From positions 4,845 to 68,844 of the forward strand of contig WQVF01000005.1 of the NCBI GenBank assembly GCA_009781725.1: 64,000 nucleotides of DNA, in the 5' to 3' direction. Below are positions 28,490 through 59,274 of the stretch, in pieces. Numbering within the stretch: position 1 is the first letter of the stretch; every line of letters starts with the position of its first letter. The notes beneath the pieces were generated by a model. That model made no database searches and was not told the origin of the DNA. It saw only the letters and a list, made by a program, of their open reading frames with translations. Source of the DNA: Defluviitaleaceae bacterium. Its GTDB lineage: Bacteria > Bacillota > Clostridia > Lachnospirales > WQUN01. The translations under genes were made by a program, and so were the position numbers.

Positions 28490-31400
28490 CTACTCATCCA
28501 ACCCTTTACGCACCAGTAACATAGACGGCTTCCGCCACTTTTTCTTTACTATAACCATATAAGCAACAAGCCCGCCGGCGGCAATCATGGCAACCCCTAC
28601 AGATGCGAGGGCAATAATTCCGCCATGTTGACCCAAGCCTCCGGTCATTGGCAAGTTAAAATCTACCCGGTTACCTACAGCAAATACATACCCGGTTTCG
28701 CCGGTAAGGCGTATAAAATGAGGCGTACTTCTATCACCTTGTAACTCCCATGATATCGTCGTAAGCTCTATTACATGGTCGATAATATCCATTCTGATTC
28801 GCCATTGACCCAAAGGTGCCGAATAGTTAGGCGGCGGCACAATTTCTACAAGCTGATAGTATGTGTGATCTTGCCCGTCTGCCCTAAAGCTCAGATTAAT
28901 CACAATGGGATAATCCGGGTCGCCGGAGCTGGTGTGGTCTAAGCCTACCCTTACCCAGCCCGGAGCAGGCACTAGAGTATCCGTCGGGGTTCCTACTCCC
29001 GTATAACGGTATAGTCTAAAGATTGCGCCTTCAACAAGGATATCTTCTATTTGAGCAAGCTGTGTCGGCGAAGCCATCTCGAATAAGTCCTGTCCCGTCT
29101 TATGGAGATGCAAAGCAGCTCTCGGGGGTGCATTACCCACATGCCAGCGCAGCCGCTCCGCTTGTGATCCTTCGCAGTTGGGGGTACCATAGGTTTCCCT
29201 ATCAAGCTGTACAAAGAAGAATTCTGTATTAAGAGGACAAGTCGCAGGGGGGGGATTTACTATATACAGCAAGTCGTCCCATACACCAGGGGCACCTTCA
29301 AATGCCTCAAGTGCCATTTCCAAGTACCAATGTCCAGGAGGCAGCCGGTACCAAGGGCCGGGAGGTGGTGCTACTTCTCTAAGCCTAAAGTTCCCGGTAT
29401 GGAAAACAAACAACGCAATCCGTCCATTGGCCTGGCTTGTAGCAGTTGTGTACAGTTCCCATATATAATCGTTCGCATTATCGCACCACACTTCCATATC
29501 CAACTCAAACACAGCACCGCCACGGTTATTGATAGTGGCAGGGAAGGAGTAAACCTCCATATCGGTTTTATAGAAATACACCGGTCGTACATAGTTGATG
29601 TCATAGTTGTTGAGTGGGTGCAGGTGAAGGCTCAAATGCTCGTATGGATTGGTATCCCATAGTGCCCACTTGATATTGGTCAACAAATACGCATTATAAG
29701 GCTTATGGAAAGGCGCAATTGCAGTATTCTCATCAAAGCGCACCAATTCCGTGGTGACTATATTATCGAAGGCATTAAATACCTCGTTGGGGTCAGGAGG
29801 TGTTGGGAATAGGATATCGTGTGGTACATCCTCACCGGATAGAAGGTATCCGTAGTCTACCAGTTCTGTAAATATTGCCCCGCCCATTCGCTCGGCGTGG
29901 TTGTCATAGAATAGTACATCATCTGCGAATAGATGTGCACGGTACATCAGGTACACTGCACCGCCGTAAATGGCCCGATTTCCTAAGAGAGTGCCGCCGT
30001 ATGCATGGAACCTGGCTGTGTAGTACGTACCTGGGTTGAATACATATACCCCGCCTCCGAAAATCTCAGATGTGTTTTCCTGAATATATCCGTCATGCAT
30101 AAAGAACGCACCGTCTCGGTAAATATAGACACCACCACCGCTGGTATGAGAATGGTTTTGATAGAATCTGCCGCCGTGCATTGTAAGATGCCCCGGCCCT
30201 CTAAGGTGATGCCATGTGCCTGTATTGCCCCATGGTGTTGCATCGCCATGGATAAATACTCCGCCGCCCCTAGTTGCACTATTTCCATCAATCCTCCATT
30301 CTCCAAACATTTCCAATTCCTTGTATGAGAGGAAAATCCCGCCGCCATCTTCTTTAGCTTCATTACCCTCAAATACAACCGGTTGATTACGCTCATCTGT
30401 TTCCCAAATACCTACTTCATAGAAAACGCCACCACCGTGTCTGTCGGCAATATTGTGACTGATATGGATTTCGTTTGGCAAGTTTCCAAAGACAGGGTTT
30501 GCCATTGTGAAAATACCACTTTCTGTGATGAAAACACCGCCTCCATCCTTGTTATTGGGGAATGCGGGATGGTGTACCGCAGGGTCAATATGATCAAGTG
30601 AAGCATGGTTGCCGATTAGGTTACCGCCGCGCATAACAAATACCGCAGAATGCTCAACTCCTCCTATTGTCTGAGAGTGAGACAGATGCACACCGCCCCC
30701 ATGACGTCCTGTATTATAGGAAATAGTGCCGTCATGCATGAACAGTCGCCCTCCACAACATACTCTAATTGCGCCGCCTCCGCCATGGGTATTGCTCTCA
30801 AAGGGTGATTGAGTGCCTATGATTCCGGCGTAATTACCGGTGATGACGCCGCCGTACATGTTGACAACACCGGCCATCAGCCAGATACCCCCACCCCAGG
30901 ATGCATGATTGTTGCTTATTGTGCCGCCATGCATATTTAGAATTGGGGTTAATCCCATGGACGAGAACCCTATGCCCCCGCCACCGTTGGTTGCAAAATT
31001 TTCTGTGATGAGAACCCCATCGTACATATTGACTATGGATGTGCCTTCTAGTGACACACCGCCACCGGTACCAGTAGCACCACCGGTACCGACACGACGA
31101 TTATTTCTTATAATTGTGCCTGACAGCAAGTTTAGTACCGGACCAGCTCCAGATACACTTATCCCGCCGCGGGTTACCGCCACAGCGTCCCCGTTACCAT
31201 CCAGTGTAAGTGTACCTGTACCAATACCGCCTAAGGAGAGATTACCATTTGCAATAACGGTAAAATGGCGGGTTGAGGCACTTGCGGTGGTTATCCATGG
31301 TACCAAAGCGGGGGTATTGGGAGCACCCGGCAGTGGCATACGAATCACAATATGTTCATCATCTGCTGCCATAATCGATACCATGCGGTTGGTTATATTA

Positions 31401-34400
31401 ATATTGGAAGCCGTTGTTCCCCCTTGCAGGTGAATCGTAGTAATGGTTCTTCCCGCGTAAAAAGGGTCGGGATGAGGGTCTGTTATTACAAAGTTATAAG
31501 TCGTGCCCAATATATCTAGCCCTGGGGTCACCCCGGACCAAGACGGATGGATAATAATATTCGGTATTGTTGTTGTACTAATCAATCTATCCAACCGTGC
31601 CCAGTCAGCACTTAGGAAGAAAAAGTTAATATCTAAGTTGTTGAGCGCATGGCTAAACCCGCCGGAGCTTGGCGTGTATTCAACATGCGTATGTGATGCC
31701 GCATTTGGAGGAGGAACGGCGGCCCCGTTTGCGGTATTACCACTAAAGACTGCGTTACCCGAAACCGTCAACTGCGGAAAATGCGGTACACCTGCATCCG
31801 GTAATGGGTTTTGGTAGGTATGCATTGAGGCAAAGATACCGCCGCCATTACCTGCGGAATGGTTATTGATTATTGAGCCGCTTTCGAAGGTAAAATGGCT
31901 GAGAGTATTGGCAGCACCGGCAATAAATACACCTCCGCCGCCTTGAGTCGCGGCGGTACCTGTAGCAAAGTTTCCGCTGATAGTCCCGCCATCCAATGTA
32001 AATGTAGCACCATTAATGCTCAATTCTACACCACCGCCACTTATAGCGCGGCCACCCTGTATTACCCCGCCTTGCGACAGTTCAAGGTTACCACCAGCGT
32101 TGTTTACAGTTACTCCTCCCCGGTTACCCTCACGTGTACCAGCATTACCATTAAGGGTAAGGGTTCCGGAAGTCGGGCCGCCACCAAGTATAAGATTACC
32201 TCCATTGCCTACATGGAAATGCCTCCCGATATTTGCTCCACCTACCGGTGTTGCAGCGGCTGTCATATCCAACACAATGTTAGCACCGGGAGCAGCTTCT
32301 ATTATTACCGGGCGCAATACATTAATCCTATGAGGATCTGTTGCCGAGACGCCCACATTAACAATAGGCACCGTGGTAATAGTACTACCATTACCTGGAT
32401 CGGTTATTATAAAGTTATAGGTAATGCCATCCGGTGCCAAGCCGGAATCTACGCCGGGGACACCTGTGGGATGGATAATAATCCGCCCTGGGTTAGGCAA
32501 GTTGGATGTATCAATTAGAACATTGAGCCTATTCCAGTCATTGGGCAGAAAGTTTATGTCTAAGTTATTAAGAGGATGCGAAAATCCGCCAGAAGCCGGC
32601 ACCGCGCCAGATATCTGTGTAACAGCTGCCGCATTGGGAGGAGGCGCAAAGCCGCCGTTACCTGCGGAGTTATTGTTAAATGCCGCAGGAGGTTGAATAT
32701 TAAGCTGTGGAAAGTGCGCTCCAGTGGGTAATGGAGAACCATATGTGAAGGCTGCCGTAAACACACCGCCACCATCTGCCGCGGCATGGTTATCACGTAT
32801 CATACCGCCAGTGAAATTGAAGTTTATGTCACCGCCGACTACCAGATGCACCCCACCCCCTGCTCCGGTTACGATGTTATTATTAATAGTACCGCCGTTC
32901 ATATTAAACTGGCCACCATTGACTGTAATAGCTACACCGCCGCCGGTACCAGCGTTATTATGCGAAATATAACCGCCAGACATATTCAAGTGGGCGTTGG
33001 CTGCAGTAAGAGCCACACCGCCGCCGCTTGTAGCGGCATAGTTATCAGTAATTCTACCACCTGACATAGTTACCGTTCCGGCAAGACCGGCAGCACCCAA
33101 TACACTAACACCGCCGCCGTTAGCCATACGGCCATTGGTAATGGCACCACGGTTTTGTAATACCAGGGTACCCCCTGCATTAACCCCTACACCGCCTCTA
33201 TTTCCTGTTGTGAGATCCGCATTGCCGTCCAGGATTAGACTGCCAGTACCGGAACCGCCACCAATCGTCAGGGTATGGCCTTCTAGGACTATAAAATGCC
33301 TGTTTAATGTCGCAGTGGTTGTCAGCCACGGAGCTTCGTTGGGGGTGTTAGGGGCACCTGATACAGGCATCCTAAGCACTATTTCGGTATTTGGTGCGGC
33401 CTGCACGTTAACCGAACGTAGCACATTAATATTATGATTGACCACCATCCCATCCAAGGGAACAGTTGTAATAGTGTATCCATCACCAGGGTCGGTGATG
33501 TTAAAATTATAGGTTGTGCCTTGCAGACCAGGGCTTAAGCTCGGTGCATGTGTTGGGAAGATAACAATAGTTGTAGCAGTCGTGCCGTTCATTACACTGC
33601 TTAACCTAAACCAATCCGCTTCTATAGATTGGAAGTTGATGTCAAGGTTATTGAGGGGATGGGCATAGCCACCAGAAACCTGGTTGGTTTCCTCAATTTG
33701 GGTTGCGGCCACCGCATTGAATGGCGGGGTAAAGCTGCCACTATTGGCGGTATTGCCGTAGAAGTTAGCTGCCCCTTCAATGGTCAACTGAGGATACGCT
33801 CCCATAGGCAAAGGATTGGCAAGAGTAAACATTGATGTAAAAATACCGCCGCCATGTGTGTTGGAATGGTTGCCAACGATATGACCGCCGCTCATATTAA
33901 ATTGATTACCAATTCCCGTGTTTATAAATATGCCGCCACCACCGTTGCCTACTACGGTGCTATTGGATTTATTGCCTTGATCTGGGGCCAAGCTCCCTAT
34001 TCTACCGCCTGTCATCGAAAGGATGGTGGAGGCTCCTAGTATTGCTATACCTCCGCCTCTGGTTGTGGCCGTATTGTCATAGATATACCCCCCAGAGATT
34101 GTGTGGGGGAAACCGACTACGGTGCTACCGTGGAGGAGTACCCCACCGCCATTGTTGGCTGTGTTGCTAGAGACAATACCACCGGTCATATTGAGGCGGG
34201 AGTTGGTTGCACCATTGGTAAAGGCCACACCACCGCCACCGCCGTCAACATTAGTGCTGGTAGAAGTATTGCCGGTTATGCTGCCTTCGTTCAAATTGAA
34301 ATGCGAATTGGTTGCGCTAAGTGCCACACCACCACCGCTGTTGGCAACACCTGTACCGTTAGTGAAATTATTTGTAATGCTACCGCCGTGCATTGTAAAA

Positions 34401-37400
34401 GTAGCTGGATGAGTGGCATTACCAGCTATCTGAACCCCACCACCAGTCGCAGCACGATTGTTGAATATTCTCCCACCTTCGTTAAGTGTAAGGCTTGCGG
34501 GGCCTGCCGCAGCAGCAGTTACCGAAATACCGCCTCTGTTTATGTTTGTTGCCACCAGATTGGCATTACCATCAAGAGTGAGTAATCCAGAGCCTAGGCC
34601 TCCGCCTACTGTAAGGTGTCCACCTGCTGCCACAGTAAAATGTCTAGCTAGGGCTGTCTGGATAGTAGCCCAAGGTGGAATATCTGGTGTGTTGGTAGCA
34701 CTAGCTGTCGGCATTCTCACAATAATATCGGCACCAGGAGCCGCTTGAATTGTCACGGTGCGATTCGCAGGTACGTTGATATTATGAGCAGTTACTGTAG
34801 CTGTAAGTGGAATCGTAGTGATTACCCTACCTTCGCCATACGGACATGGGTCGGAGATTATCAAGTTATAAACAGAACCATCAATACCTTCATTTACACC
34901 TGTTGTTCCCGTTGGGTGAATGATTACGGTATCTACGGTAGTGCTGTTTACGACTGCGTTTAATATAGTCCAGTCCGCGATAATAAGACCGCCCGCCGGG
35001 AAGTTGATATCCAGGTTATTTATCGGATGCCAATGTGTGCCGGAGCTTGATGCCGTTATAGCAACATTGGTTGAAAGATGGGCGTTGCCTGGTGGATTAA
35101 ACCCGCCTTGGCCGGAAGTATTGCCGTTAAATGATGCATCTTCATGAATATTAAGCTGCGGGAATGACCCCGGCGCAATATACAACCCAAATGCATACGT
35201 TCGGGTATGGATACCGCCGCCGTGGGATACGGCGTGATTATTGTGAATGGATCCATTTTCCATAGTGAAGTTGCTGTTTGCGCCAGCTATAAGGAATACA
35301 CCGCCGCCGCCAACAGTTGCCAGTGTACCGTTTGCAGTGTTGCCTGAAATACTACCATTTTCCATGGTAAACCTTGCGCCATTGGTAATAAGTGCGACAC
35401 CCCCACCACTGGAGGCTGCAATATTGCCGGCTATACTACCGCTTTCCATAGTAAAGAGACCGGTATTATTAATCGCTACACCGGCACCACCAGCAGTGGC
35501 GGCAGTACCGTTAGCAAAGTTGCCGGAGATGCTGGTGGTAGCACCTGACATATTTAACAAAGCATTGGCACCAGCAAGCATCACACCGCCTCCGCTTGTA
35601 TTAGCAGTGTTGCCAGTGATACTACCGCCGGAAAAATTATGGGGATTGTTTGCAAGATGTACATTGAGCAATACACCTCCGCCAATGTTGCCTGTGTTAC
35701 CGGAGATAGTGCCGTTGGTCATATTAAAACGGCCACCTGCGGCAGTGAAGGCTACCCCACCACCACCTGCCGTTGTTGCCGTCCCATTGGCGAAATTACC
35801 AGAAATGACACTGGACTCTGACATATTAAGCTGACCATTGCTAGTAAAGGCAACTCCTCCACCACTGGTGTTGGCAGTATTACCAATGATATTACCGCCA
35901 GAGAGATTGAGCGTTCCCCCCGCTGTAATCGCAATGCCACCGCCATTTGTGTTGGAATGATTGTTGTCGCCTGTTACCAGACTGCCAATGGTACCACCAG
36001 ACATATTAAGCGTAGTGACACCCGCTACCGCAACACCGCCGCCGTTATTGTTTGCGTGGTTGTCATAGATATATCCACCAGAAAAGATATGAGGATAATC
36101 AACATGGTTGGGATGGAGCAATACACCACCGCCATGACCAGCCGCAAAGTTATTTCGGATTCTGCCACCGGTCATTGTAAAACGAGAGTTGGTTGCAGAT
36201 GATGTAAGTGCCACACCGCCACCGCCTGGTAGGGTACCGCTGCTGGCTGTGGCATGATTATTTTCAATAATACCGCCAGACATAGTGAAATGAGTATTGG
36301 TAGAGTGAAGAGCGACCCCACCGCCACTGTTGGCAACCGCAGTACCGGTAGTGAAGTTGTTGGTAATGCTGCCACCAGTCATGGTAAAAGTACCAGGATG
36401 GGCTGCGACAGCATTGACTTGAACTCCGCCGCCGGTTGCTGCACGGTTATTGTGTATTATACCGCCTTCTCTTAGCGTAAGGCTCGCAGGTCCTGCAGCT
36501 GTCGCCGCAACCGAAATACCGCCCCTAATAATGGTGCCTCCTACAAGGCTGGCATTGCCGTCCAAGGTGAGATTACCTGAGCCAGGGCCACCGCCTATTG
36601 TCAGATGCCCGTTGGCTAGAACGGTAAAGTGCCTAACCAAAGTTGTCTGAGTAGTTGCCCAGGGAGGAATATTCGGGGTATTGGAAGCACCCGCTGTCGG
36701 CATTCTGATAATAATGTTAGAGCCGGGAGCCGCTTCGATCGCCACAGTACGGTTAGCAGGGATATTGATATTGTGAGCAGTAGTTGTCCCCGTTACGGGA
36801 ACCGTTGTGATTACTCTGCCGTCGCCGTATGGGCAGGGGTCAGAGATTACCAAGTTGAAGGTCGTACCGGATATACCATGGGTTACGCCAAGGGCACCTG
36901 TCGGGTGTATAACGATGGTATCTATAGTTGATGTAGAAATTATGCTGTTTATTAATAACCAATCAGAGGCAACTCTTGAGAAGTTGATATCTAGATTGTT
37001 AAGAGCATGAGGATGCCCTCCTGAACGTGACATAGTTACAGCAATATTTGTGGCATCCACGGCATTATATGGTGGAGCAAAATTCCCGCCCCCTGCTGTA
37101 TTGCCCGAAAATGACGCCGCAGGGTAAACATTAAGCTGAGGATATGCGCCCACTGGTAAAATGGGCGAATGAGTAAAGGTCGATGTAAAGATACCGCCGC
37201 CGTTCATTACGGCGGTATTATTATGAATAGTTCCGTTTTCAAATGTAAAATTACTACCGGCACCCACCGCAAGAAATACGCCACCGCCACCGTTGGCCGC
37301 TGCTGTACCGTTGGCAAAGTTGCCGGAAATATTACCGTTTTCCATGGCAAGCCTTGTATTATCTACATTAAGAGCCACGCCGCCACCGCTGGTATTGGCT

Positions 37401-42547: not shown

Positions 42548-42607
42548 CCAAACAGGAGCTTAAATTTATGTTACATAATGAAAATACTGACATCACTCCT
42601 GCCAACT

Positions 42608-44894: not shown

Positions 44895-44933
44895 GGTATA
44901 CCGCCTTTCAAATACAAATAAGAAGGGTTGCCA

Positions 44934-52727: not shown

Positions 52728-52796
52728 GCGGCTTTGACCAAAATGACAAAACAAGAAAGGTAACAGGGCTGTCACGTTAGGAATGCCGTAATTTCG
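52728..52796. repeat. Composite repeat: CGGCTT/CCAAAATGACAAAAC box plus the outer arm of family 1
   Basis: gcggctttgaccaaaatgacaaaacaagaaaggtaacagggctgtcacgttaggaatgccgtaatttc. It closely matches 54470-54535. Confidence 0.75.
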
Positions 52797-53222: not shown

Positions 53223-53547
53223 AAACCAGCACACCTTCTTTTTTTACGTTTTTATATAATTGAGTCGGTTCCTCAATAAAATTAACCTCATGGGTGATAA
53301 AAACAGAAGGAAACTCGCCATATCGGTTTATGATATCCACGGTAAAATCATTGTACACCGTACAAATATATTTCCATGTTTCTACCGGCTCAGATAAGAC
53401 AACCATAAAATCAACATCGGAATCACTGTTGGCTTCCCCTCTGGCATAAGAACCAAATAGCCACACTTGCCTTAAGATATCTCCAAAAGCCTTATGCGAA
53501 ACCTCTACCGCTTCTTGCATTATGTTTTTTATTGATTGCTCATTCAT
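53215..53547 (-). CDS. Minimal nucleotidyltransferase (MNT, antitoxin component of a HEPN-MNT pair)
   Basis: LFGSYARGEANSDSDVDFMVVL (GS...DxD NTase motif). I placed the start at MNEQS (53547), with GGAGG 5 nt upstream. Confidence 0.8.
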   Translation of the reverse strand: MNEQSIKNIMQEAVEVSHKAFGDILRQVWLFGSYARGEANSDSDVDFMVVLSEPVETWKYICTVYNDFTVDIINRYGEFPSVFITHEVNFIEEPTQLYKNVKKEGVLVYG

Positions 53548-53582
53548 ACTAACCTCCATCGTTATCTGTTGCCAACAGTTGA

Positions 53583-53645
53583 TATAGTATGCCTGTTGCG
53601 GCTTGGATTTTCAAGAGGTAGCGGCTTTATCCAAAATGATAAAAC
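53583..53645. repeat. 63-nt duplicated upstream module (copy 1) carrying a candidate outward promoter and the CCAAAATGA(T/C)AAAAC box
   Basis: It matches 54434-54496 with 2 mismatches by eye. On the minus strand it reads TTGAAA (53614-53609), 17 nt, CATACT (53591-53586). It lies 36 nt upstream of the MNT start. Confidence 0.7.
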
Positions 53646-53730
53646 CGGAAAAGTAAATAGGACGACATGGAAATTATTTCCATGCTGCTCTGTTTAATAC
53701 ATCGCATAAGATTAGTGCGACACAAAATTA

Positions 53731-53904
53731 TTACGTCTGCACCTCCGCATTTTCTATTACTTTGAAGCCATATTTCTTTGCTGTAGTTTCGCCACTTTTA
53801 CGGTAATACTCTGTTAGCTGCGATGGGGTCATGTCTTTCGTTTTTTCGTAAATCGCAATCCGAATTTGGTCTACTTCCTGCTCTATTCGGTTAACCAACT
53901 TCAT
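53731..53904 (-). CDS. 57-aa ORF absent from the ORF track, coupled to the PIN gene (candidate antitoxin or partner)
   Basis: My hand translation is MKLVNRIEQEVDQIRIAIYEKTKDMTPSQLTEYYRKSGETTAKKYGFKVIENAEVQT. GGAGGTG lies 7 nt upstream of the ATG. The ORF overlaps the PIN 3' end by 14 nt. Confidence 0.55.
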   Translation of the reverse strand: MKLVNRIEQEVDQIRIAIYEKTKDMTPSQLTEYYRKSGETTAKKYGFKVIENAEVQT

Positions 53905-54370
53905 TTTCTATCACCTCCATAGGCGTATAGATTTCCACGGCGCGATAGCCGTTTAAAGTGTTTATGCTTCCTGTACCTATTTTTGTTTTACGTTTTACAA
54001 TATGCTGAAAATTCATGCTGATTATCATGTCCAAATCGTTTACCGTGGCTATCGCAATATGCAAACCATCTGTGCGATATTTTTGCGGGATTATATTTTC
54101 TGTAACATACAAATCCGAAATCCTTACGGTTTCTTCTGTGGGTGCAAGCACTGCAATGTTATATTTTGAGATAAGTCCAAGCATTTTTTCACGTTTTCCT
54201 ACCGGTGCGTTTTCCAACTCGTCAGTTGCATAGGTTGATGTAAACGCTTTATGTTTTCCTGCCGCAATCTCTTTGAAAAGAGCGACCGTACATTCATGCG
54301 CCATGCCCCTATCCTCATCAAAATAAAAATTAAACAGAGTTGTCTCCAGATATATCTTTTGCTTTCTCAT
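53891..54370 (-). CDS. PIN-domain protein (VapC-like putative ribonuclease)
   Basis: IYLETTLFNFYFDED (first acidic residue region), TDELE, DGLHIAIA, and MNFQHI near the C-terminus. I placed the start at MRKQK (54370). The track ORF begins at 54388. Confidence 0.7.
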   Translation of the reverse strand: MRKQKIYLETTLFNFYFDEDRGMAHECTVALFKEIAAGKHKAFTSTYATDELENAPVGKREKMLGLISKYNIAVLAPTEETVRISDLYVTENIIPQKYRTDGLHIAIATVNDLDMIISMNFQHIVKRKTKIGTGSINTLNGYRAVEIYTPMEVIENEVG

Positions 54371-54433
54371 ACGTGATTGTCCTCTCAACAGTTACATTGT
54401 CCATTGAATGGTAAAGCTACACCATCCGCTGTC

Positions 54434-54510: not shown

Positions 54511-54514
54511 GTGT

Positions 54515-54655
54515 GTCACGTTAAGACGTAATAAAAGCCCGTCATCCCGGGCTTGACCCGGGATCCCCTTAGTCTTTCGACAATGATAATGGGATCCCGG
54601 ATTAAATCCGGGATGACGAGCCTTGAAATTACGGCATTCTTAACGTGACAGCCCC
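54515..54655. repeat. Intergenic palindromic repeat family 1, most complete copy (~140 bp with outer and inner inverted arms)
   Basis: GTCACGTTAAGAcgtaat...CGTCATCCCGGGCTTGACCCGGGATCCCC-ttagtctttcgacaatgataatg-GGATCCCGGATTAAATCCGGGATGACG...ATTACGGCATTCTTAACGTGACAGCCCC. Confidence 0.85.
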
Positions 54656-54669
54656 GCAATAATTCAAAC

Positions 54670-57600
54670 TTACACACCTTGCATATAGTAAACCTCAAAC
54701 TCAAAAACAACTATCGGTGTAGCACCTGTGCTATTGCCGCTGACCAACCGTACATACCTGGCTTGGATGGTGGTATGGTGCGTAAACTCATAGTAGTTGG
54801 GCGTTGCCTCCATAATACGTGTGCCTGAGCGGATGGTGGTCCACGTAATTCCATCGTTAGAGTATTGGAAGCTATAGTTCATAATCCTATTGCCCCCCTG
54901 GTAAATCCTTATATGGTTGAAGTTGCGTACTTCCCCAAAGTCAACCTGTAGCCATTCCTGACCTATGCCGGTTGCAGACCAGCTTTGAGTGGCAGCTCCA
55001 TCGCGGATGCCGTTATTGGCTCTAGTGTGTGGGCGAGCAGGCATGTAGCTTGATGCGCTCATTACTGCGCCATGGATGTCACGGGCTAGGTTTGTGGTTG
55101 GGCAGGGGAGGTTGCCTTGGGAGGTGGGTTCCCAGATGGCTCTGTACTCCCACACAAATGGATACCCCTCTTTCAACAAAAAGTCAATCCAAGATAGTTC
55201 GCATATATGCAAAAAGGGCAACTCATAAGTGGCCAAAATACGACCAGTCTGGACTTCATACCATCCGATAAGAATATGGTCGTCTAGCTGAGGGTCAGGC
55301 ACACCATGCCAGTGCCATTGCATTGCTACGAAAATGTCGTTACCACATGAGTATGGCTTATCGCAATAAATCCAAGCATGAGCAAGTACGCTCTCCCCTG
55401 TCAGATGGCATGTACCTCCATTAAAGTCAATCATGATGTTAGAACGCCTTGATATTTGGGTGAAAATACGTGGAGCGTAGATTGGCATTTGTTTAATATA
55501 CCATGCAAAATAATATTCCGATGTTATCGCATCTCGCCACAATGGGGTACCAAACGAGTAACGATCAACATAAAACACTTCCTGTAACGAATTGCCGTGT
55601 GGGACATGGAAACTTCGTTGAGCTCTCTCCCGAGCAAATTGCCATTTATCATCACCACGGAAACAGCAACAGTCTAAATAGAAAGGCATAAGATGTATCT
55701 CATGAGTATTTTCAGTAGTTATAGTTACACGCGCAGTTCCAGAGATATTCGTGTCAACTGTTGAAGTGGCTCTTACAGTAATTTGAGTGCCTGACGTCTC
55801 GCCATGACATATAACAAGTCCCAGACCTTGCCATGTCATCGCAAGGTGTGTCAAAAATGAGTTGTTGCCTTCAATAGTCCACGTAACAGTTTGCGGAGGA
55901 TTAATGCCATCAACAACTGTTGCAGTAATGCCTGCTACCTGTGTTCCTGGTAGTGCATAAGCTGTAGGCAGATTCACAATGATGCGCATTGCTTTTTCCC
56001 AGCGCGCATAAAGCCTAGTATCATTATTATTAGGCATGTTGGTAGCTGGAGTCAAAGCCTGCGTAAATCCAGGATTAAGATACCATCCAGCAAAGGTATA
56101 CCCAACCCGAGTCGGGTCGGCAGGGAAACTCGGGGCTTGCATTATTAGTGTGTTTATAAAAACCCGTATGGTATCAATGCTTTGGGGAGTTGTTGGGTTG
56201 GACTCTGTACCGCCTAGTACAAAATTAATCGGCCGAGCATTACCTCCAGTCCCCGCCCAATATTGTATATCAAAATTATTAAAACCTTGTGTAAAGGGAC
56301 AAGTCCACTGAGTCCCATGTATATTAGCCGCATACCGGGCAGCGTCCTCTGGGGCGTGATATCGTATACCGGAACCGGTAATTGTATTGTTATTCGCAAA
56401 CACAGCATTTGCACCTATAGTGAAGCGGCCTGTGTCTAATGCATCACGCAAAACAGTGATTGAAGCAACTGAGGGGCCACCGACAGACAGTGGGCCACTG
56501 CTAATCCCTATACCTCCTACCACGATAGCTGAGTTGCCGGAGATTTCCCCGCCTGTCATATGAAAGCTAAAGGTATGACCTCCAATTAATCCAATTCCAC
56601 CACCATTTTGACCTGTACTATTATTACGGATATAACCACCGCTCATGGTAAAGGCACTGCTATTAGACACACCTCCTGACCAATTGGATGAACTGTTATA
56701 TGAAATTGTACCGCCTTCCATTATAAAGGTGCCTGCCGACATGTTAAGCACACCACCGCCACTGCCAGTGACAATGTTGTGGTATATGTCACCCCCTGCC
56801 ATGGTAAACACAGCAGTAGAAACCATATTTGTAACACCGCCGCCACCTTGGCCTGTAGCTGTATTGTGAGAAATCATGCCGTCATTCATATTGAAAATAG
56901 CTGTATTGCTTACTCCTCCACCACCATTTGGACCTGTGGCCGTGTTATTGGTAATTACACCGCCCTCCATGGTAAATGTCCCATAAACACGGACACTATT
57001 GACTGTCACAACAGAGTTCCTTACACCACCGGAAAAGGCTCCTGTGTTGCCGGAGATAGTTCCGCCATACATAGTAAAGACATTCCAATTTGTCACTCCA
57101 CCAGCTGGGTTGCCTATGGCTGTATTACCTGATATTTCTCCGCCTTCCATCACAAAAACACCCTGATTCTCGACCGCGCCGCGGTTATGCCCGGTAATAA
57201 TACCGCTATCCAATGTCAGGTGTCCGTTACGAGATACAAAAATACCGTTGCCTGTCGTATTCGGGGTACGTGTCACACCGATATTTTCTAATGTCAGGTA
57301 TGCGTATGGGTCGTTGAGTATATTTTCTCCGACTTGGATAGCATTGAAATTACCGCCGGCACTGATATAACGCCTAACCCCGCCTGCGCCTCGCAATATT
57401 ACATTGGCCCCATTCGGAATAAGCAACGGTGCTTGGACCTCGGAAAGAGTAATATCCTGAGTCAGGTAAATAACCGTCGGCGTACCTCCCGCACTTGCCA
57501 CTGCTGCACGCAGAGCCATTTCAGGCGATAGCGATGTTATATTTGACGCACCTAAATATACGCTGAATGAAATTGTATTCCCCGCTACACTGACATTGTA

Positions 57601-59274
57601 AATCTCAATCCCGGTGTTATAGCCTTCGTGTGTATAAATAATCCCTAAATATCCTGTGCCTTGAGCATCGCCAAACGCAGTGCGGCCGGTAGTTGCCGAT
57701 AATGATGCCAATGCAACATTGCTGGTTGCCGCATTTCTGACTGTTGTACCGGGGCGGAATATATATACCTCATCCCCAAAATCAGGGCTCGCAGAGTCTG
57801 CATTGCCCCTGAACCCTGTATTTATTCTTGTGATTACAAGCCCCGCCCGATAATCTCCCGATGACGCTACCTGGAAACGGTCATATGCCGTTGGGTTCAC
57901 GCTACTTCTGTATTCAAGCAACATAAACTCATTGGGCCTGTTCTCAATAGGGATTACAAATGCCGTATCTCCGCTGGATGCACCCAAGGGATGGAGAGTA
58001 AATGTGCCGCTGTTGGTTATCTCTACCGGCGGGTCGCCCCAGCCTACATAACGGCGCATTGCGTGAGTATTGGAAAACTGAAATAAGTCATCACTGTTAT
58101 GGGACATGATGTCCCAATGTCCTACCGGCCTGCCAACATGAGCGTATCTGTAGAAATCAGGCATTCCAAAGACATGCAATTGTTCATGGACGATTACACT
58201 CCGCCTTAGTGTCGAGAATGGGTAGCTTGCTCCTAGCATCAACAGGCTATAATCACTGACAGCTACACCATTAAGAGATGCAGATGCATGTTGCAAACTC
58301 CACGCATGAGGCCACAAGAAACTTGCCCATGCACCAGGGTCGCCGGTAAGGACAAATGTAACGCTGTCTACACGGGACGAATGAATAGTATTAAGCACTC
58401 TCCCTGCCAAAAGAGCACTGCCATCTATTGCCTCAATAGCGCGGGCTAACAAATGCTGGCCACGGATATGACCCTCTGTTATGCCATTTACCGGAGTGGG
58501 GTTATATCCAATAGGGTTAGATGCAGAGACGGGCATAAAATAGCCCCTTGGCTGGGTATCCCGGTACATAATAACTGTGTTGTTGTTCATGCCAACGAGA
58601 GTTGAGTTGAGGGTGAGCACACCGTCAGAAGCGGCATACATATAACTCCTCAAGGAAGATTGAGGCCCGTTGAACCTGTCCTCTATTACCCCTGCAAGTG
58701 TGGGTGAAATTGTGTATGGCTCTCCGTCAAATGTAATCAAAATTACAATATTCTCAATTGTGCCACTTATCGGGTTTCCGCGAACCATACCAACGCCAAA
58801 CGTAGCAGGTTCGATTCCCTGTGATTCAAGGGGAGTTATTTCTTCCGATGTGTCCATACTGCGCACAAGATGCGAGTTTATCCCAAAGTCGATATCCGCA
58901 GTAGTTATGCCATGGGCGGAAATAGGCTGAGCCATCCGCGCCAGGCTATTGGCATCGTAGAACCGGCCATCATTAATCGCAACTCGGCTTGATGGACTAA
59001 GTATGCCGTTTCCATCCAATGTGGCATAGACCCAAAATCCCGTTTCGGGATGCTGGATTATTATCCTGCCCTCACTGTCATGTAAATAGTTAAAAAACTC
59101 ATCGCCGCTAACAAAGGCATCAAGAGTTGTACCATCAGGCTGCTCCACCGTCATTGGAATATTGAACAATGGGGCTGCCATTACACTTACGGATATTGCG
59201 GCAAACATCACTATCAGTGAAGCTATTGCTGCCAGAAACACTTTTGGAGCGAGTGGTCTTTGTCGATTTTTCAT
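54670..59274 (-). CDS. Secreted mosaic protein: M6-family (immune inhibitor A-like) metalloprotease, beta-helix GGG[VI] repeats, Flg_new repeat, Big_2-like domain and a C-terminal F5/8 type C (discoidin) domain
   Basis: I placed the start at MKNRQ (59274, GAGGAGG 9 nt upstream). Signal peptide ...SVSVMAAP. HEQLH zinc motif at 58174-58188 (VHEQLHVFGMPDFY). GGGVSN/GGGVTN/GGGVLN turns. NNFDIQY at 56260-56280. GYTFAGWYLNP...LYARW. The C-terminus, WLQVDFGEVRNFNHIRIYQ...ARYVRLV, is typical of discoidin domains. Confidence 0.85.
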   Translation of the reverse strand: MKNRQRPLAPKVFLAAIASLIVMFAAISVSVMAAPLFNIPMTVEQPDGTTLDAFVSGDEFFNYLHDSEGRIIIQHPETGFWVYATLDGNGILSPSSRVAINDGRFYDANSLARMAQPISAHGITTADIDFGINSHLVRSMDTSEEITPLESQGIEPATFGVGMVRGNPISGTIENIVILITFDGEPYTISPTLAGVIEDRFNGPQSSLRSYMYAASDGVLTLNSTLVGMNNNTVIMYRDTQPRGYFMPVSASNPIGYNPTPVNGITEGHIRGQHLLARAIEAIDGSALLAGRVLNTIHSSRVDSVTFVLTGDPGAWASFLWPHAWSLQHASASLNGVAVSDYSLLMLGASYPFSTLRRSVIVHEQLHVFGMPDFYRYAHVGRPVGHWDIMSHNSDDLFQFSNTHAMRRYVGWGDPPVEITNSGTFTLHPLGASSGDTAFVIPIENRPNEFMLLEYRSSVNPTAYDRFQVASSGDYRAGLVITRINTGFRGNADSASPDFGDEVYIFRPGTTVRNAATSNVALASLSATTGRTAFGDAQGTGYLGIIYTHEGYNTGIEIYNVSVAGNTISFSVYLGASNITSLSPEMALRAAVASAGGTPTVIYLTQDITLSEVQAPLLIPNGANVILRGAGGVRRYISAGGNFNAIQVGENILNDPYAYLTLENIGVTRTPNTTGNGIFVSRNGHLTLDSGIITGHNRGAVENQGVFVMEGGEISGNTAIGNPAGGVTNWNVFTMYGGTISGNTGAFSGGVRNSVVTVNSVRVYGTFTMEGGVITNNTATGPNGGGGVSNTAIFNMNDGMISHNTATGQGGGGVTNMVSTAVFTMAGGDIYHNIVTGSGGGVLNMSAGTFIMEGGTISYNSSSNWSGGVSNSSAFTMSGGYIRNNSTGQNGGGIGLIGGHTFSFHMTGGEISGNSAIVVGGIGISSGPLSVGGPSVASITVLRDALDTGRFTIGANAVFANNNTITGSGIRYHAPEDAARYAANIHGTQWTCPFTQGFNNFDIQYWAGTGGNARPINFVLGGTESNPTTPQSIDTIRVFINTLIMQAPSFPADPTRVGYTFAGWYLNPGFTQALTPATNMPNNNDTRLYARWEKAMRIIVNLPTAYALPGTQVAGITATVVDGINPPQTVTWTIEGNNSFLTHLAMTWQGLGLVICHGETSGTQITVRATSTVDTNISGTARVTITTENTHEIHLMPFYLDCCCFRGDDKWQFARERAQRSFHVPHGNSLQEVFYVDRYSFGTPLWRDAITSEYYFAWYIKQMPIYAPRIFTQISRRSNIMIDFNGGTCHLTGESVLAHAWIYCDKPYSCGNDIFVAMQWHWHGVPDPQLDDHILIGWYEVQTGRILATYELPFLHICELSWIDFLLKEGYPFVWEYRAIWEPTSQGNLPCPTTNLARDIHGAVMSASSYMPARPHTRANNGIRDGAATQSWSATGIGQEWLQVDFGEVRNFNHIRIYQGGNRIMNYSFQYSNDGITWTTIRSGTRIMEATPNYYEFTHHTTIQARYVRLVSGNSTGATPIVVFEFEVYYMQGV

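What the first reader, a model, noticed from the sequence alone, without database searches (positions are those of the whole stretch)
28490..59274. 31-kb locus dominated by three related beta-helix surface/secreted proteins, interleaved with a helicase and two toxin-antitoxin cassettes
**Size.** The three genes are 13,947, 7,239 and 4,605 nt, together 25,791 nt or about 40% of the window.

**Shared building blocks**
- Flg_new (Listeria-Bacteroides) repeats
- long runs of ~22-25-aa turns, each ending in GGG[VI], like Pmp/right-handed beta-helix repeats
- the NN[LYF]DI[NQ][FY] junction motif

**Differences.** The two giants also have a colinear 110-aa N-terminus, Tyr/Asp/Glu-rich tracts, SpaA-like domains and LPMTGG anchors. 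The third protein swaps these for an M6 metalloprotease head and a discoidin tail.

**Context.** All three are on the same strand. They are separated by an Lhr-like helicase, HEPN-MNT, a PIN module and palindromic repeats. No sortase, secretion accessory gene or glycosyltransferase is in the window.

**Interpretation.** This looks like an expanding, recombining adhesin or surface-coat gene family stabilised by addiction modules. Whether the family is already described needs database work.
Basis: partly seen in the sequence, partly recalled or inferred. Interest (0 to 1): 0.75.

Follow-up and report, generated by a model that had tools for sequence, protein, structure and literature searches.

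The report
Giant segmented beta-helix wall-anchored surface proteins
A termite-gut-type Clostridia genome carries three neighbouring paralogous genes for very large surface or secreted proteins made of chains of Pmp-like beta-helix rods; they belong to a large, unnamed metagenomic family, and the helicase and toxin-antitoxin genes between them look like unrelated insertions.

Summary
Three same-strand ORFs of 4648, 2412 and 1543 aa are real, related and intact. The source is a Defluviitaleaceae MAG, and gene A is MCL2360570.1, annotated "hypothetical protein".

A and B are probable sortase substrates. Each has a signal peptide, a Flg_new-like domain, a Tyr/Asp/Glu tract, then 8 (A) or 2 (B) independently capped right-handed beta-helices. 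The helices are built from ~30-aa Pmp-type coils. One or two SpaA/CnaB-like domains and an LPMTGG sorting signal follow.

Each helix starts with a DW..LN / RHF cap and ends in a near-universal LNNxDIN[FY] motif. Pfam, NCBIfam and PDB do not describe these caps.

C is an M6 metalloprotease fused to one such helix, a Flg_new repeat and a discoidin domain, with no anchor.

The module profile hits 97,788 cluster representatives, including many multi-module giants. A Defluviitaleaceae subfamily shares the whole N-terminal layout.

The paralogues are old: DNA identity is at most 76% and there are no gene-conversion tracts. Relatives elsewhere lack the helicase and HEPN-MNT neighbours. "Recombining" and "stabilised by addiction modules" are therefore unsupported.

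Verdict: an undescribed architectural variant of known Pmp-like beta-helix surface proteins. Function (adhesion or coat) is inferred. Interest is moderate to low.

The parts
28490..42436 (-). Gene A, 4648 aa: signal peptide, Flg_new-like domain, Y/D/E tract, eight capped beta-helix modules, two SpaA-like domains, LPMTGG anchor. It is MCL2360570.1, annotated 'hypothetical protein', from a Defluviitaleaceae MAG.
42314..42436 (-). A residues 1-41: basic n-region plus a 19-aa hydrophobic core ending VFA/FT. This is a predicted Sec signal peptide or N-terminal anchor, judged by eye only.
   Evidence: The layout is conserved in 10 or more subfamily members.
42104..42274 (-). A residues 55-111: Flg_new-like (Listeria-Bacteroides repeat-like) domain, ...ADYIFSHWS..PDG..FYAIWR.
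   Evidence: B equivalent E 0.002, sub-threshold; A not detected; weak BLASTP match to C's Flg_new; conserved in the subfamily.
41837..42103 (-). A residues 112-200: Tyr/Asp/Glu-rich acidic tract.
40316..41419 (-). A module M1 (aa 340-707): beta-helix with the short N-cap type shared with B M1 (50% identity over 370 aa).
   Evidence: (Beta_helix 19.8 bits, sub-threshold)
31622..40315 (-). A modules M2-M7 (aa 708-3605): six units of 309-660 aa. Each has an alpha-helical DW..LN cap and RHF N-cap, 3-14 GGG[VI] coils, and a C-cap ending HPLNNLDINF.
   Evidence: no Pfam hit in any of them
29591..31621 (-). A module M8 (aa 3606-4282): the only module that passes Pfam Chlam_PMP (51.6 bits against a cut-off of 20.6) and TIGR01376.
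28655..29590 (-). A residues 4283-4594: two SpaA/CnaB-like (prealbumin-fold) stalk domains.
   Evidence: SpaA E 0.008, sub-threshold; sequence pattern read.
28493..28654 (-). A residues 4595-4648: LPMTGG, a hydrophobic segment and a KKKWRK tail, forming a cell-wall sorting signal.
42681..45002 (-). Orphan SF2 helicase, 773 aa. Full-length match to PADLOC SngC (1.5e-219) and BrxHI (2e-113). Matches to Lhr-like NCBIfam models are sub-threshold. No SngA/SngB or BREX partner is adjacent.
45282..52520 (-). Gene B, 2412 aa: same N-terminal layout as A, two beta-helix modules, one SpaA-like domain, LPMTGG anchor.
   Evidence: (P0164)
51621..52187 (-). B residues 112-300: long Tyr/Asp/Glu/Gly tract that includes four tandem copies of a 45-nt (15-aa) unit.
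50070..51143 (-). B module 1 (aa 460-817).
45852..50069 (-). B module 2 (aa 818-2223): a single uninterrupted 1406-aa beta-helix unit with 32 GGG[VIAL] coils.
   Evidence: (Chlam_PMP 14.8 bits, sub-threshold).
45285..45851 (-). B tail: SpaA/pilin-type C-terminal domain plus LPMTGG sorting signal.
   Evidence: SpaH/EbpB pilin C-terminus, 2.6e-6.
52818..53559 (-). MNT (53215-53559) and HEPN (52818-53234) pair, overlapping by 20 nt. This is a type VII-like TA or defence cassette.
   Evidence: HEPN 5e-17; NTP_transf_2 5e-11; PDC-S09 1.7e-26; MntA-like, sub-threshold.
53731..54388 (-). ORF165 (53891-54388) with an overlapping downstream ORF57 (53731-53904). This is a putative VapC/PIN-like two-gene cassette that is not recognised by any profile.
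   Evidence: homologue annotation
53583..53675 (-). Leader repeat upstream of MNT. A copy at 54434-54526 lies upstream of ORF165 (93% over 74 nt). A partial copy is at 52727-52782.
52766..52795 (.). 30-nt inverted-repeat arm. Its partner is at 54625-54654 (97% complementary). Together they bracket both TA cassettes.
54534..54624 (.). REP-like palindromic element (CGTCATCCCGGGCTTGA units). Other copies are at 44937-45015, 28304, 1219-1295 and 225.
54670..59301 (-). Gene C, 1543 aa: signal peptide, M6 metalloprotease, one beta-helix module, Flg_new, a Cys-rich region of unknown type, and an F5/8 type C domain. It has no anchor.
57895..58740 (-). C residues 188-469: M6 (immune inhibitor A-type) catalytic domain with the motif HEQLHVFGMPD.
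   Evidence: TIGR03296 4e-20, below cut-off; homologues named M6 family metalloprotease / immune inhibitor A, carrying PF05547.
56260..57534 (-). C residues 590-1014: beta-helix module ending FNNFDIQY.
56005..56127 (-). C residues 1059-1099: Flg_new repeat.
54733..55059 (-). C residues 1415-1523: F5/8 type C (discoidin) domain.
   Evidence: 1.5e-18

Best explanation
**What A and B are.** They are secreted by Sec and covalently attached to peptidoglycan by a sortase encoded elsewhere, through LPMTGG. Each is a segmented rod. One or two SpaA/CnaB-like stalk domains sit at the wall. A chain of independently capped right-handed parallel beta-helices follows: 8 in A and 2 in B, one of them 1406 aa long. 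The distal tip carries a small beta domain, an acidic Tyr-rich tract and a Flg_new-like domain.

**How the helices are built.** The coils are about 30 aa long and of the Pmp type (..I/F..N.A...GGG[VI]..). Each helix begins with an amphipathic alpha-helix (DW..LN.LI) plus an RHF-containing cap. Each ends with PP.NA...H.LNNxDIN[FY].

**Size (inferred).** About 68 coils at roughly 0.48 nm each, plus caps, gives A a length of several tens of nanometres.

**Function (inferred).** The most likely role is surface display for adhesion or a protective coat in the termite-type gut. Candidate targets are plant fibre, host cuticle or other cells. This rests on analogy with chlamydial Pmps, archaeal adhesin-like proteins and other beta-helix adhesins.

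**What C is.** It is a soluble, unanchored M6 zinc protease that uses the same helix type, a Flg_new repeat and a discoidin domain as a targeting arm.

**How the family arose.** It grew by old tandem duplication of whole capped modules and of whole genes.

**The neighbours.** The helicase and the two small cassettes are independent defence or selfish elements that landed in the intergenic gaps.

**Shown versus inferred.** Shown: the ORFs, the module anatomy, homology, the sorting signals, family size, the age of the duplicates and the non-conserved context. Inferred: the fold details, the length, anchoring and the adhesive function.
For: **ORFs and motifs.**

**Module anatomy.**

**Pmp membership signal.**
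- Module M8 passes PF02415 (51.6 bits against 20.6) and TIGR01376.
- The other modules are 30-60% identical to one another.
- Homologues carry PF02415, PF13229, Flg_new and SLH.
- The coil consensus is sgG.i..N.Aa..GGGVal.

**Fold.**
- The AF2 model of M7 has pLDDT 69.9 and pTM 0.76, with periodic short strands. All top PDB Foldseek hits are right-handed beta-helices (TibA, rhombotarget A, pectate lyases, Ag43, PfbA), although none is significant.
- The AF2 model of the cap-junction-cap construct has pLDDT 85.4 and pTM 0.73. It shows an alpha-helix at DW..LN.

**C-cap motif, tested independently of the motif.** 133 of 168 pre-motif cap hits are followed by the strict motif. The 25 exceptions listed are all one-residue variants.

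**Anchor.** LPMTGG with tails and the SpaH/EbpB pilin C-terminal match.

**C head.** Its homologues are M6 / immune inhibitor A proteins. The discoidin domain scores 1.5e-18.

**Integrity.**
- An identical 4648-aa product is found in the NCBI MAG, in an ENA MEGAHIT-style contig and in a Logan contig.
- Intragenic DNA repeats are at most 76-81% identical.

**Family.**
- 97,788 representatives at E <= 1e-3 and 8,347 at E <= 1e-30, including many giants.
- 32 of the top 147 have two or more junction motifs. P0127, from another Defluviitaleaceae MAG, also has 8.
- The N-terminal layout is shared by 10 or more relatives.

**Context.** It is not conserved in related loci.

**Literature.**
- Pmp FxxN/GGA motifs are structural parts of beta-helix coils, and PF02415 is widespread outside Chlamydia (PMC11166332).
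- Parallel beta-helix repeat proteins are classed as 'adhesin-like proteins' in gut archaea (PMC7883539).
Against: - No binding or localisation data exist. 'Adhesin' is analogy only.
- Seven of A's eight modules and both B modules do not pass any Pfam model.
- Foldseek matches are all non-significant, and there is no sequence relative in PDB.
- AF2 can produce confident but unrealistic beta-solenoids for repeat proteins (bioRxiv 10.1101/2024.10.30.621056).
- The signal peptide was judged by eye. No predictor was available.
- No sortase is in the window, so anchoring is inferred from the motif alone.
- The source is a MAG from short reads. All three assemblies may come from the same or related read sets.
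Confidence: 0.65

Rival explanations
1. The beta-helix modules are enzymes of the pectate-lyase or glycoside-hydrolase-like fold. A and B would then be giant multi-catalytic, wall-tethered polysaccharide-degrading proteins for lignocellulose breakdown in the termite gut.
For: - Foldseek's (non-significant) hit list is dominated by pectate and pectin lyases, polygalacturonases, alginate lyases and epimerases.
- C combines the helix with a carbohydrate-binding discoidin domain.
- Defluviitaleaceae are abundant in termite guts (PMC7024585).
Against: - No lyase or glycoside-hydrolase Pfam or NCBIfam family is hit, even at E <= 1 per module.
- The conserved positions are core and coil positions (GGG[VI], N, A) and cap motifs, not a surface catalytic groove.
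- Sequence relatives carry Chlam_PMP, Flg_new and SLH rather than CAZy domains.
Confidence: 0.1
2. The three genes, the helicase and the TA cassettes form one functional island. The addiction modules would maintain a recombining, phase- or antigen-variable adhesin array.
For: - Same strand and tight spacing.
- TA genes also occur within a few kb of relatives in L006 (ParE, MazEF) and L008 (BrnT).
- A 30-nt inverted repeat brackets the cassettes.
Against: - There are no near-identical tracts among the paralogues: at most 76% DNA identity, and the longest exact repeat is 40 nt, outside the giant genes.
- No recombinase or invertase was found among the window ORFs scanned.
- The TA types differ between loci, and L004 and L007 have none adjacent.
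- The TA segment has deviant GC.
- Each giant gene has its own terminator and promoter-like sites.
Confidence: 0.08
3. The giant ORFs are assembly artefacts: collapsed or chimeric repeats in a short-read MAG.
For: The sequence comes from a MAG, and the proteins are highly repetitive.
Against: - The repeats are only 65-81% identical at the DNA level, which short reads resolve easily.
- The identical 4648-aa ORF was recovered on three differently assembled contigs.
- Reading frames of 14 kb and 7 kb remain open.
- Colinear relatives of 2.5-4.3 kaa exist in other samples.
Confidence: 0.03
4. The invariant LNNxDIN[FY] junctions are processing or functional sites. They could be autoproteolytic, or targets of the co-located secreted metalloprotease. 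A would then be a polyprotein releasing individual beta-helix units, or a rod whose length is trimmed after export.
For: - The motif is far more conserved than the surrounding sequence and sits exactly at every module boundary.
- Secreted metalloproteases lie next to giant relatives at two other loci as well as here.
Against: - The motif is also present where nothing follows except an LPXTG anchor or a Flg_new/SLH region. This fits a simple structural C-cap.
- AF2 models it as ordered, with pLDDT of about 87-89.
- No similarity to a known self-cleaving module was found.
- The proteases at the other loci belong to a different, weakly assigned family.
Confidence: 0.07

Closest known systems
Chlamydial polymorphic membrane proteins (Pmp; Pfam PF02415 Chlam_PMP, TIGR01376 POMP_repeat)
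   Same: - Long right-handed parallel beta-helices built from repeated coils carrying an [F/I]xxN ... GG[A/G][I/L/V] signature.
- Multi-paralogue surface families.
- Module M8 passes both profiles.
- The motifs are structural core elements (PMC11166332).
   Different: - Pmps are Gram-negative type V autotransporters with a C-terminal beta-barrel and a Pmp_M middle domain, and with one helix per protein.
- Here there is no barrel. There is an LPXTG anchor instead, and up to eight separately capped helices per chain.
- The signature is GGG rather than GGA.
- Most modules are not recognised by PF02415.
Archaeal and gut-microbe 'adhesin-like proteins' (parallel beta-helix repeat proteins, often with Listeria-Bacteroides/Flg_new repeats)
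   Same: - Beta-helix repeats combined with Flg_new in gut-associated organisms.
- Assumed to have an adhesion role (PMC7883539).
- PF02415 is common next to isopeptide stalk domains in archaeal surface proteins (bioRxiv 10.1101/2025.04.25.650565).
   Different: - The organism here is bacterial, and attachment is by sortase.
- The tandem capped-module architecture has specific RHF and LNNxDIN[FY] caps.
- The N-terminus carries a Tyr/acid-rich tract.
Gram-positive LPXTG fibrillar adhesins with SpaA/CnaB stalk domains (for example SpaH/EbpB-type pilins, and the beta-helix adhesins PfbA and SRRP-BR)
   Same: - Signal peptide, a distal functional region, a CnaB/SpaA-like stalk and an LPXTG sorting signal.
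- PfbA and the L. reuteri SRRP binding region are beta-helix adhesins and appear in the Foldseek lists.
   Different: - The stalk domains number only one or two. The bulk of the 'stalk' is itself made of beta-helices.
- There is no significant structural or sequence match to PfbA or SRRP.
- No pilin motif or pilus-specific sortase is nearby.
M6 family metalloproteases (immune inhibitor A, InhA)
   Same: C's head has the HExxHxxGxxD motif, matches TIGR03296 and PF05547, and has homologues with those names.
   Different: - It scores below the NCBIfam cut-off (72.8 against 110.8 bits).
- It is fused to a Pmp-type beta-helix, a Flg_new repeat and a discoidin domain.

Membership tests
Pmp-repeat beta-helix proteins (PF02415 / TIGR01376) | Profile match above the curated cut-off | tested here: met
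   - A module M8: PF02415 51.6 bits against a cut-off of 20.6; TIGR01376 18.5 bits against 15.
- Not met by A M1-M7 or B M1.
- B M2 scores 14.8 bits, which is sub-threshold.
- For most of the protein, membership is by internal homology to M8 only.
Pmp-repeat beta-helix proteins (PF02415 / TIGR01376) | Alternating FxxN and GGA[ILV] tetrapeptides at regular spacing, one pair per coil | tested here: inconclusive
   - The coil consensus is sgG.i..N.Aa..GGGVal, with spacing of 27-36 aa.
- The signature is GGG, not GGA.
- Position -9 is mostly I rather than F.
- This is the same type of signature, but degenerate.
Chlamydial Pmp autotransporters (type V secretion) | C-terminal autotransporter beta-barrel and Pmp_M middle domain | tested here: not met
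   There are no Autotransporter or Pmp_M hits. The C-termini are SpaA-like domains plus LPMTGG.
Right-handed parallel beta-helix fold (pectin-lyase-like) | Predicted or solved structure superposes on known beta-helices | tested here: inconclusive
   - AF2 gives periodic short strands, with pLDDT 69.9 and 85.4 for the two models.
- All top Foldseek hits are beta-helices, but the best E-value is 0.067 and TM is at most 0.38.
- Pfam Beta_helix scores 19.7-19.8 bits, below its cut-off of 25.9.
Sortase-anchored (LPXTG) cell-wall proteins | C-terminal LPXTG, hydrophobic span and positively charged tail, plus an N-terminal signal peptide | tested here: met
   - A: LPMTGG at 4595, followed by a hydrophobic stretch and KKKWRK.
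- B: LPMTGG at 2368, followed by a hydrophobic stretch and KRRRLVIKKRKA.
- C lacks it.
- The signal peptide was judged by eye only.
Sortase-anchored (LPXTG) cell-wall proteins | A cognate sortase in the genome | not testable with these tools
   None of the ORFs scanned in the 64-kb window is a sortase. The rest of the MAG was not available.
SpaA/CnaB-type isopeptide stalk domains (PF17802) | Profile match above cut-off and a Lys-Asn/Asp isopeptide triad | tested here: inconclusive
   - PF17802 E 0.008, 16.7 bits against a cut-off of 23.1.
- NF033902 pilin C-terminal region 2.6e-6 for B, far below its whole-protein cut-off.
- The triad was not examined structurally.
Flg_new / Listeria-Bacteroides repeat (PF09479, TIGR02543) | Profile match above cut-off | tested here: met
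   - Met in C: 40-43.5 bits against 27, and TIGR02543 27.8 bits against 20.95.
- Sub-threshold in B's N-terminus: 18.7 bits.
- Not detected in A's N-terminus.
M6 metalloprotease (InhA; PF05547, TIGR03296) | HExxHxxGxxD zinc site and a profile match | tested here: met
   - The HEQLHVFGMPD motif is present.
- TIGR03296 gives E 4e-20, but 72.8 bits against a cut-off of 110.8.
- Homologues with E down to 1e-295 carry PF05547 and the names 'M6 family metalloprotease' or 'immune inhibitor A'.
F5/8 type C (discoidin) domain | Profile match above cut-off | tested here: met
   PF00754 67.6 bits against 28.2; PF22633 52.5 bits against 27.8.
HEPN-MNT toxin-antitoxin (type VII-like) | Adjacent or overlapping MNT and HEPN genes with profile matches | tested here: met
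   - HEPN PF05168 at 5e-17 and NTP_transf_2 at 5e-11.
- The genes overlap by 20 nt.
- PADLOC PDC-S09 at 1.7e-26.
- MntA NF047752 scores only 34.5 bits against a cut-off of 60.
- Toxicity was not tested.
PIN/VapC toxin | PIN-domain profile match with four conserved acidic residues | tested here: not met
   - No Pfam, NCBIfam, PADLOC, PHROG or PDB match.
- The only support is a 31%-identical Leptospira plasmid homologue that PGAP annotates as a VapC family toxin, with the same overlapping small downstream ORF.
Shango defence system (SngABC) | SngC helicase together with SngA and SngB | tested here: not met
   SngC matches full-length at 1.5e-219. However, the helicase is flanked directly by genes A and B, and there is no SngA or SngB.

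The most novel reading that the evidence does not exclude
The LNNxDIN[FY] C-cap, paired with the alpha-helix and RHF N-cap, may define an undescribed 'stackable' beta-helix cassette whose junction is a functional site. It could be an autoprocessing site or a protease-recognition site. It could equally be a metal-dependent hinge that sets rod length or releases helix units. The neighbouring secreted metalloproteases (C here, and the HEISH proteins next to relatives) would be the maturases. The giant proteins would then be processed polyproteins or length-tunable fibres rather than static adhesins.
Probability: 0.07. Interest if true: 0.7.

Novelty: new variant of a known kind. Interest (0 to 1): 0.35.

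Why it matters
**Coverage gap.** Pmp-like beta-helix surface proteins are known, but most of these proteins are invisible to Pfam and NCBIfam. That includes seven of the eight modules of A and both modules of B. Yet the module profile finds about 98,000 cluster representatives, many of them giants.

**A usable definition.** A capped unit can now be stated: an alpha-helix and RHF N-cap, ~30-aa GGG[VI] coils, and an LNNxDIN[FY] C-cap. With it, one could:
- annotate a large block of 'hypothetical' giant proteins in gut metagenomes;
- count modules correctly;
- obtain a natural, concatenable beta-solenoid building block for structural and protein-design work.

**Biology.** For termite-gut Defluviitaleaceae, which are abundant and uncultured, the genes are candidate determinants of attachment to fibre or host.

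**Limits.** The interest is tempered. The kind of protein is expected, its function is only inferred, and the gene neighbourhood has no demonstrated meaning.

Tried and rejected
- **Whole-protein Pfam scan.** It is almost blank for A and B because of composition and length. The proteins had to be scanned by segment and by module.
- **The search for homologous proteins with A's N-terminal 460 aa.** It found nothing. Neither that search nor the search with the module returned A itself. The longest hit was 1011 aa and 1069 aa. Giants therefore appear invisible to this tool, and its negative result is uninformative. The exhaustive representative search solved the problem.
- **The search for related loci.** The single N-cap against GTDB genome contigs gave 243 pattern hits but no confirmed relative. 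No species-representative genome with a close relative was found by that route.
- **phmmer of M7 against homologues.** The matches fragmented into coils and could not be used to build an MSA. Motif-anchored extraction was used instead.
- **PDB searches.** Sequence searches with the module profile, A's tail, C's head and ORF165 all returned nothing. Foldseek on both models returned no significant match.
- **Rfam on the whole window.** No family was found. There is no conserved leader upstream of A, B and C.
- **Length polymorphism within 90% clusters.** The differences of 11, 31 and 60 aa are only alternative start calls. The sequences are otherwise 100% identical. Gene A's own 90% cluster has a single member. 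Strain-level polymorphism therefore could not be assessed.
- **Synteny through the A2M-like gene** seen near both this locus and L004. It was rejected because orientation and order differ.
- **Model coordinates.** They could not be retrieved, so helix handedness, coil count, inter-module geometry and the packing of the NNxDIN residues were not inspected directly.

Full report
**1. The observation**

The window holds three long minus-strand ORFs at the stated places:
- A: 28490-42436, 4648 aa.
- B: 45282-52520, 2412 aa, GTG start.
- C: 54670-59301, 1543 aa from the first ATG.

Between them lie:
- a 773-aa helicase (42681-45002);
- an MNT/HEPN pair (53215-53559 and 52818-53234);
- a 165-aa ORF (53891-54388) with an overlapping 57-aa ORF (53731-53904).

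| Feature | A | B | C |
|---|---|---|---|
| NN[LYF]DI[NQ][FY] junctions | 8 | 2 | 1 |
| GGG[VI] | 64 | 28 | 4 |
| LPMTGG + hydrophobic span + basic tail | yes | yes | no |

The three proteins are clearly homologous. BLASTP gives E = 0 for A vs B, 4e-33 for A vs C and 2e-23 for B vs C.

**2. Source and integrity**

Gene A is an exact match to MCL2360570.1, 'hypothetical protein FWC73_02010', from a Defluviitaleaceae MAG on an 86.9-kb contig.

The identical 4648-aa product is also encoded on an ENA contig of 84.9 kb and on a Logan contig of 14.2 kb.

The internal repeats are old at the DNA level:
- The best self-match in the 31 kb is 76% over 722 nt.
- Between A and B it is 72% over 122 nt.
- The longest exact repeat is 40 nt and lies in the TA leaders.

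Collapse or chimerism in a short-read assembly is therefore unlikely. There is also no sign of recent gene conversion.

Defluviitaleaceae are abundant, mostly uncultured members of termite guts (PMC7024585). Many homologues come from taxa typical of that habitat: Treponema, Oscillospiraceae, Saccharibacteria and Coriobacteriales MAGs.

**3. Anatomy**

Aligning the stretches between junction motifs shows a repeated supermodule. It has three parts:
- an N-cap: DW..LN.LI ... IIIHPTG ... TYNL.I.D..TITT ... R.V.I.AAPGANI..RMP..NTP..PW.TT..L.RHF.V..G.L..GGG.G.G.L.LDGN ... RGG;
- a variable number of coils;
- a C-cap: FPQLNI..A.F.GN....PP.NA....H.LNNLDINF.

Module sizes:

| Protein | Modules | Size (aa) | GGG coils |
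|---|---|---|---|
| A | 8 | 309-677 | 3-14 each |
| B | 2 | 358 and 1406 | 5 and 32 |
| C | 1 | 425 | 4 |

The coil period, measured between GGG motifs, is 27-36 aa with a median of about 30. The anchored coil consensus is sgG.i..N.Aa..GGGVal. Pairwise module identity is 27-62%.

The layout upstream of the first helix is colinear in A and B:
- a basic and hydrophobic leader;
- a Flg_new-like domain (..G[YF].F[ST]HWS..PDG..F.....FYAIW);
- a Tyr/Asp/Glu-rich tract, which in B contains four tandem 45-nt units;
- a small beta domain.

The same layout recurs in at least ten relatives.

Downstream of the last junction come the stalk and anchor. A has about 310 aa and B about 145 aa with the SpaA/CnaB sequence pattern, followed by the sorting signal.

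**4. Domain evidence**

Whole-protein Pfam scans are almost blank for A and B. Scanning module by module gives the following:
- Only A's M8 passes Chlam_PMP (51.6 bits against 20.6) and TIGR01376.
- B's M2 (14.8 bits) and A's M1 (Beta_helix, 19.8 bits) are sub-threshold.
- The other modules hit nothing, even at E <= 1.

Assignment to the Pmp type therefore rests on three things: M8, internal homology among modules, and homologues that carry PF02415, PF13229, Flg_new and SLH.

C is better covered:
- M6 domain: TIGR03296 at 4e-20, with the motif HEQLHVFGMPD. Homologues with E down to 1e-295 are named M6 family metalloprotease or immune inhibitor A and carry PF05547.
- Flg_new at 4e-10.
- F5/8 type C at 1.5e-18.

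**5. Structure**

An AF2 model of module M7, built with a 13-sequence alignment, is of moderate quality. It has pLDDT 69.9 and pTM 0.76, shows periodic short strands, and has a poorly defined C-cap. Every top Foldseek match in PDB is a right-handed beta-helix: TibA, rhombotarget A, pectate and pectin lyases, AlgG, PfbA, Ag43 and tailspikes. None is significant; the best E-value is 0.067 and TM is at most 0.38.

A second model spans a junction (A 3180-3440) and used 36 junction-centred sequences. It is better, with pLDDT 85.4 and pTM 0.73. The motif region scores about 87-89. It places an alpha-helix on DW..LN.LI directly after the junction, followed by the strands of the next cap. It has no PDB analogue; the best E-value is 0.79.

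Sequence searches of PDB found nothing.

Three caveats apply:
- AF2 is known to over-predict beta-solenoids for repeats (bioRxiv 10.1101/2024.10.30.621056).
- I could not inspect coordinates.
- The second alignment was selected using the motifs.

**6. Is the junction motif really conserved?**

My alignments were selected by the motif, so their 'invariant' columns are circular. I therefore built an HMM from the pre-motif part of the C-cap only.

Of 168 non-truncated hits, 133 are followed within 45 aa by the strict motif. The 25 exceptions listed are all single-residue variants, such as NNHDINF, NNNDINF and NNYDI[SVAG]Y. L-N-N-x-D-I is therefore effectively universal at the end of this helix type. 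Whatever follows can be another module, a Flg_new/SLH region, or an LPXTG anchor a few residues later.

**7. Family size and relatives**

An exhaustive profile search with the module alignment gave 97,788 cluster representatives at E <= 1e-3 and 8,347 at E <= 1e-30. A ranked top and B was also present, as P0164. Many hits are giants of 2-6.9 kaa with up to 23 matched stretches.

Among the top 147:
- 55 have at least one strict junction motif and 32 have two or more.
- P0127 has eight. It is 3690 aa, is MCL2572498.1, and comes from another Defluviitaleaceae MAG.
- 29 end in an LPXTG-like signal.
- 13 have a tract that is at least 60% Y/D/E.

A fourth paralogue from the same MAG lies on another contig (P0275, MCL2362343.1, FWC73_11100, 2573 aa).

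All named members are annotated 'hypothetical protein'. I found no paper describing the capped tandem architecture. The literature searches returned only two relevant lines of work:
- The chlamydial Pmp work shows that PF02415 is widespread outside Chlamydia and that the motifs are structural. It cites a 43-coil Akkermansia helix as a record (PMC11166332).
- General gut-microbe work discusses 'adhesin-like' beta-helix and Listeria-Bacteroides repeat proteins (PMC7883539; bioRxiv 10.1101/2025.04.25.650565).

**8. The neighbours**

*Helicase.* It matches PADLOC SngC full-length (1.5e-219) and BrxHI (2e-113). It matches Lhr-type NCBIfam models only below threshold. It is flanked directly by A and B, so it is an orphan: no SngA/SngB or BREX genes are present.

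*MNT/HEPN.* This is a typical overlapping pair.

*ORF165 and ORF57.* They hit no profile library or PDB entry. A 31%-identical homologue on Leptospira plasmids is annotated as a VapC family toxin. It has the same overlapping small downstream ORF. 'PIN' is therefore plausible but unverified.

*Signs that the cassettes are insertions:*
- The TA segment has GC 0.39 against about 0.47 elsewhere.
- Each cassette is preceded by the same 74-110-nt leader, 93% identical, with a promoter-like TTGAAA-17-CATACT.
- A 30-nt inverted repeat (97% complementary) brackets both cassettes.

*Palindromic repeats.* They are a REP-like element found throughout the window: 8 copies against 0.17 expected.

*Related loci.* Giant relatives at four other loci sit among housekeeping genes such as NlpC/P60, BipA, HflX, ribosomal proteins and RNase R. 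(Five locus ids were fetched; L004 and L005 are the same place.) None has this helicase or HEPN-MNT. Two have unrelated TA types within a few kb (ParE and MazEF; BrnT).

I conclude that the interleaved genes are independent insertions. The 'addiction-stabilised' idea has no support.

**9. Most likely mechanism**

A and B are Sec-exported, sortase-anchored, segmented beta-helical rods. The C-terminus is at the wall. The Flg_new-like domain and the acidic Tyr-rich tract are at the distal end.

With about 68 coils, A should extend several tens of nanometres. This is an inference from the usual rise of about 0.48 nm per coil.

C is an unanchored M6 protease with the same helix type, plus Flg_new and discoidin domains as a probable targeting arm.

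By analogy with Pmps, archaeal adhesin-like proteins and Gram-positive beta-helix adhesins, the probable role is adhesion or a surface coat in the gut. This is inferred, not shown.

The rivals are weighed in the structured fields. They are an enzymatic polysaccharide lyase or hydrolase role, a functional TA-linked variable island, an assembly artefact, and junction processing.

**10. Verdict**

This is a real feature and a well-defined paralogous family. It is a new architectural variant of a known kind of protein. The variant is tandem, independently capped Pmp-like beta-helices on an LPXTG anchor. Their conserved caps are not described by Pfam, NCBIfam or PDB.

It is not categorically new. 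Its function is inferred, and the surrounding helicase and TA genes are incidental.

Interest is 0.35.

Noticed in passing
window 225-241, 1219-1295, 28304-28320, 44937-45015, 54540-54618: A REP-like palindromic intergenic element with units CGTCATCCCGGGCTTGA, often as inverted pairs. There are 8 copies in 64 kb against 0.17 expected. It is scattered across the window rather than specific to the locus.
   Followed up: partly
window 52727-52795, 53583-53675, 54434-54526, 54625-54654: The two small cassettes share a 74-110-nt upstream leader (93% identical) with a promoter-like site. A partial copy sits upstream of gene B. A 30-nt inverted repeat (97% complementary) brackets the whole 1.9-kb AT-rich TA segment. 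This suggests cassette-wise insertion or duplication. No recombinase was found among the window ORFs scanned.
   Followed up: partly
window 42681-45002: An orphan helicase with a full-length PADLOC SngC match (1.5e-219) but no SngA or SngB. It is wedged between two giant surface-protein genes and is followed by a perfect 21-bp-arm bidirectional terminator at 42607-42650.
   Followed up: partly
window 20011-21330 (and 19224-19859): An AAA_15/AAA_21 ATPase (PtuA- / retron-effector-like, sub-threshold) lies in the lowest-GC stretch of the window (GC 0.355 at 20-22 kb). It sits beside a 211-aa ORF with no family hit. This may be another defence cassette.
   Followed up: no
L006 7342-9246 (-) and L007 6909-9725 (+); compare window 54670-59301: Two giant relatives are each adjacent to a secreted protein of 634 or 938 aa. 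Each of those has Flg_new repeats, Cys clusters and a C-terminal HEISH zinc-protease-like motif (weak M54 hit, E 0.01). Their signal peptides are 32-42% identical to that of protein C. Pairing of a protease with a giant helix protein therefore recurs at three loci.
   Followed up: partly
window 45852-50069 (B module 2): A single uninterrupted capped beta-helix unit of 1406 aa with 32 GGG[VIAL] coils. At about 30 aa per coil it would rival the 43-coil Akkermansia helix that PMC11166332 calls record-breaking.
   Followed up: no
L003 2-4966: In a JGI metagenome (3300009826), the relative P0067 (880 aa) is preceded in frame by a 760-aa ORF. The two are separated by a single stop codon (…NRAT*GGGVWVG…). 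This is either a pseudogene, a sequencing error, or a protein of at least 1650 aa split by the gene caller.
   Followed up: partly
window 63002-63970; L004 26825-30784: An alpha-2-macroglobulin-like gene lies a few kb from the giant-protein genes both here and next to the closest relative P0127. Order and orientation differ, so this is probably coincidence.
   Followed up: partly
window 55072-56001 (C residues 1101-1410): A region of about 310 aa in C, between Flg_new and the discoidin domain, has Cys clusters (LDCCCFRGDD) and no Pfam hit. Its domain type is unknown.
   Followed up: partly
tool behaviour: the search for homologous proteins listed no protein longer than 1069 aa and did not return protein A for its own fragments. 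Its negative results say nothing about giant homologues.
   Followed up: yes
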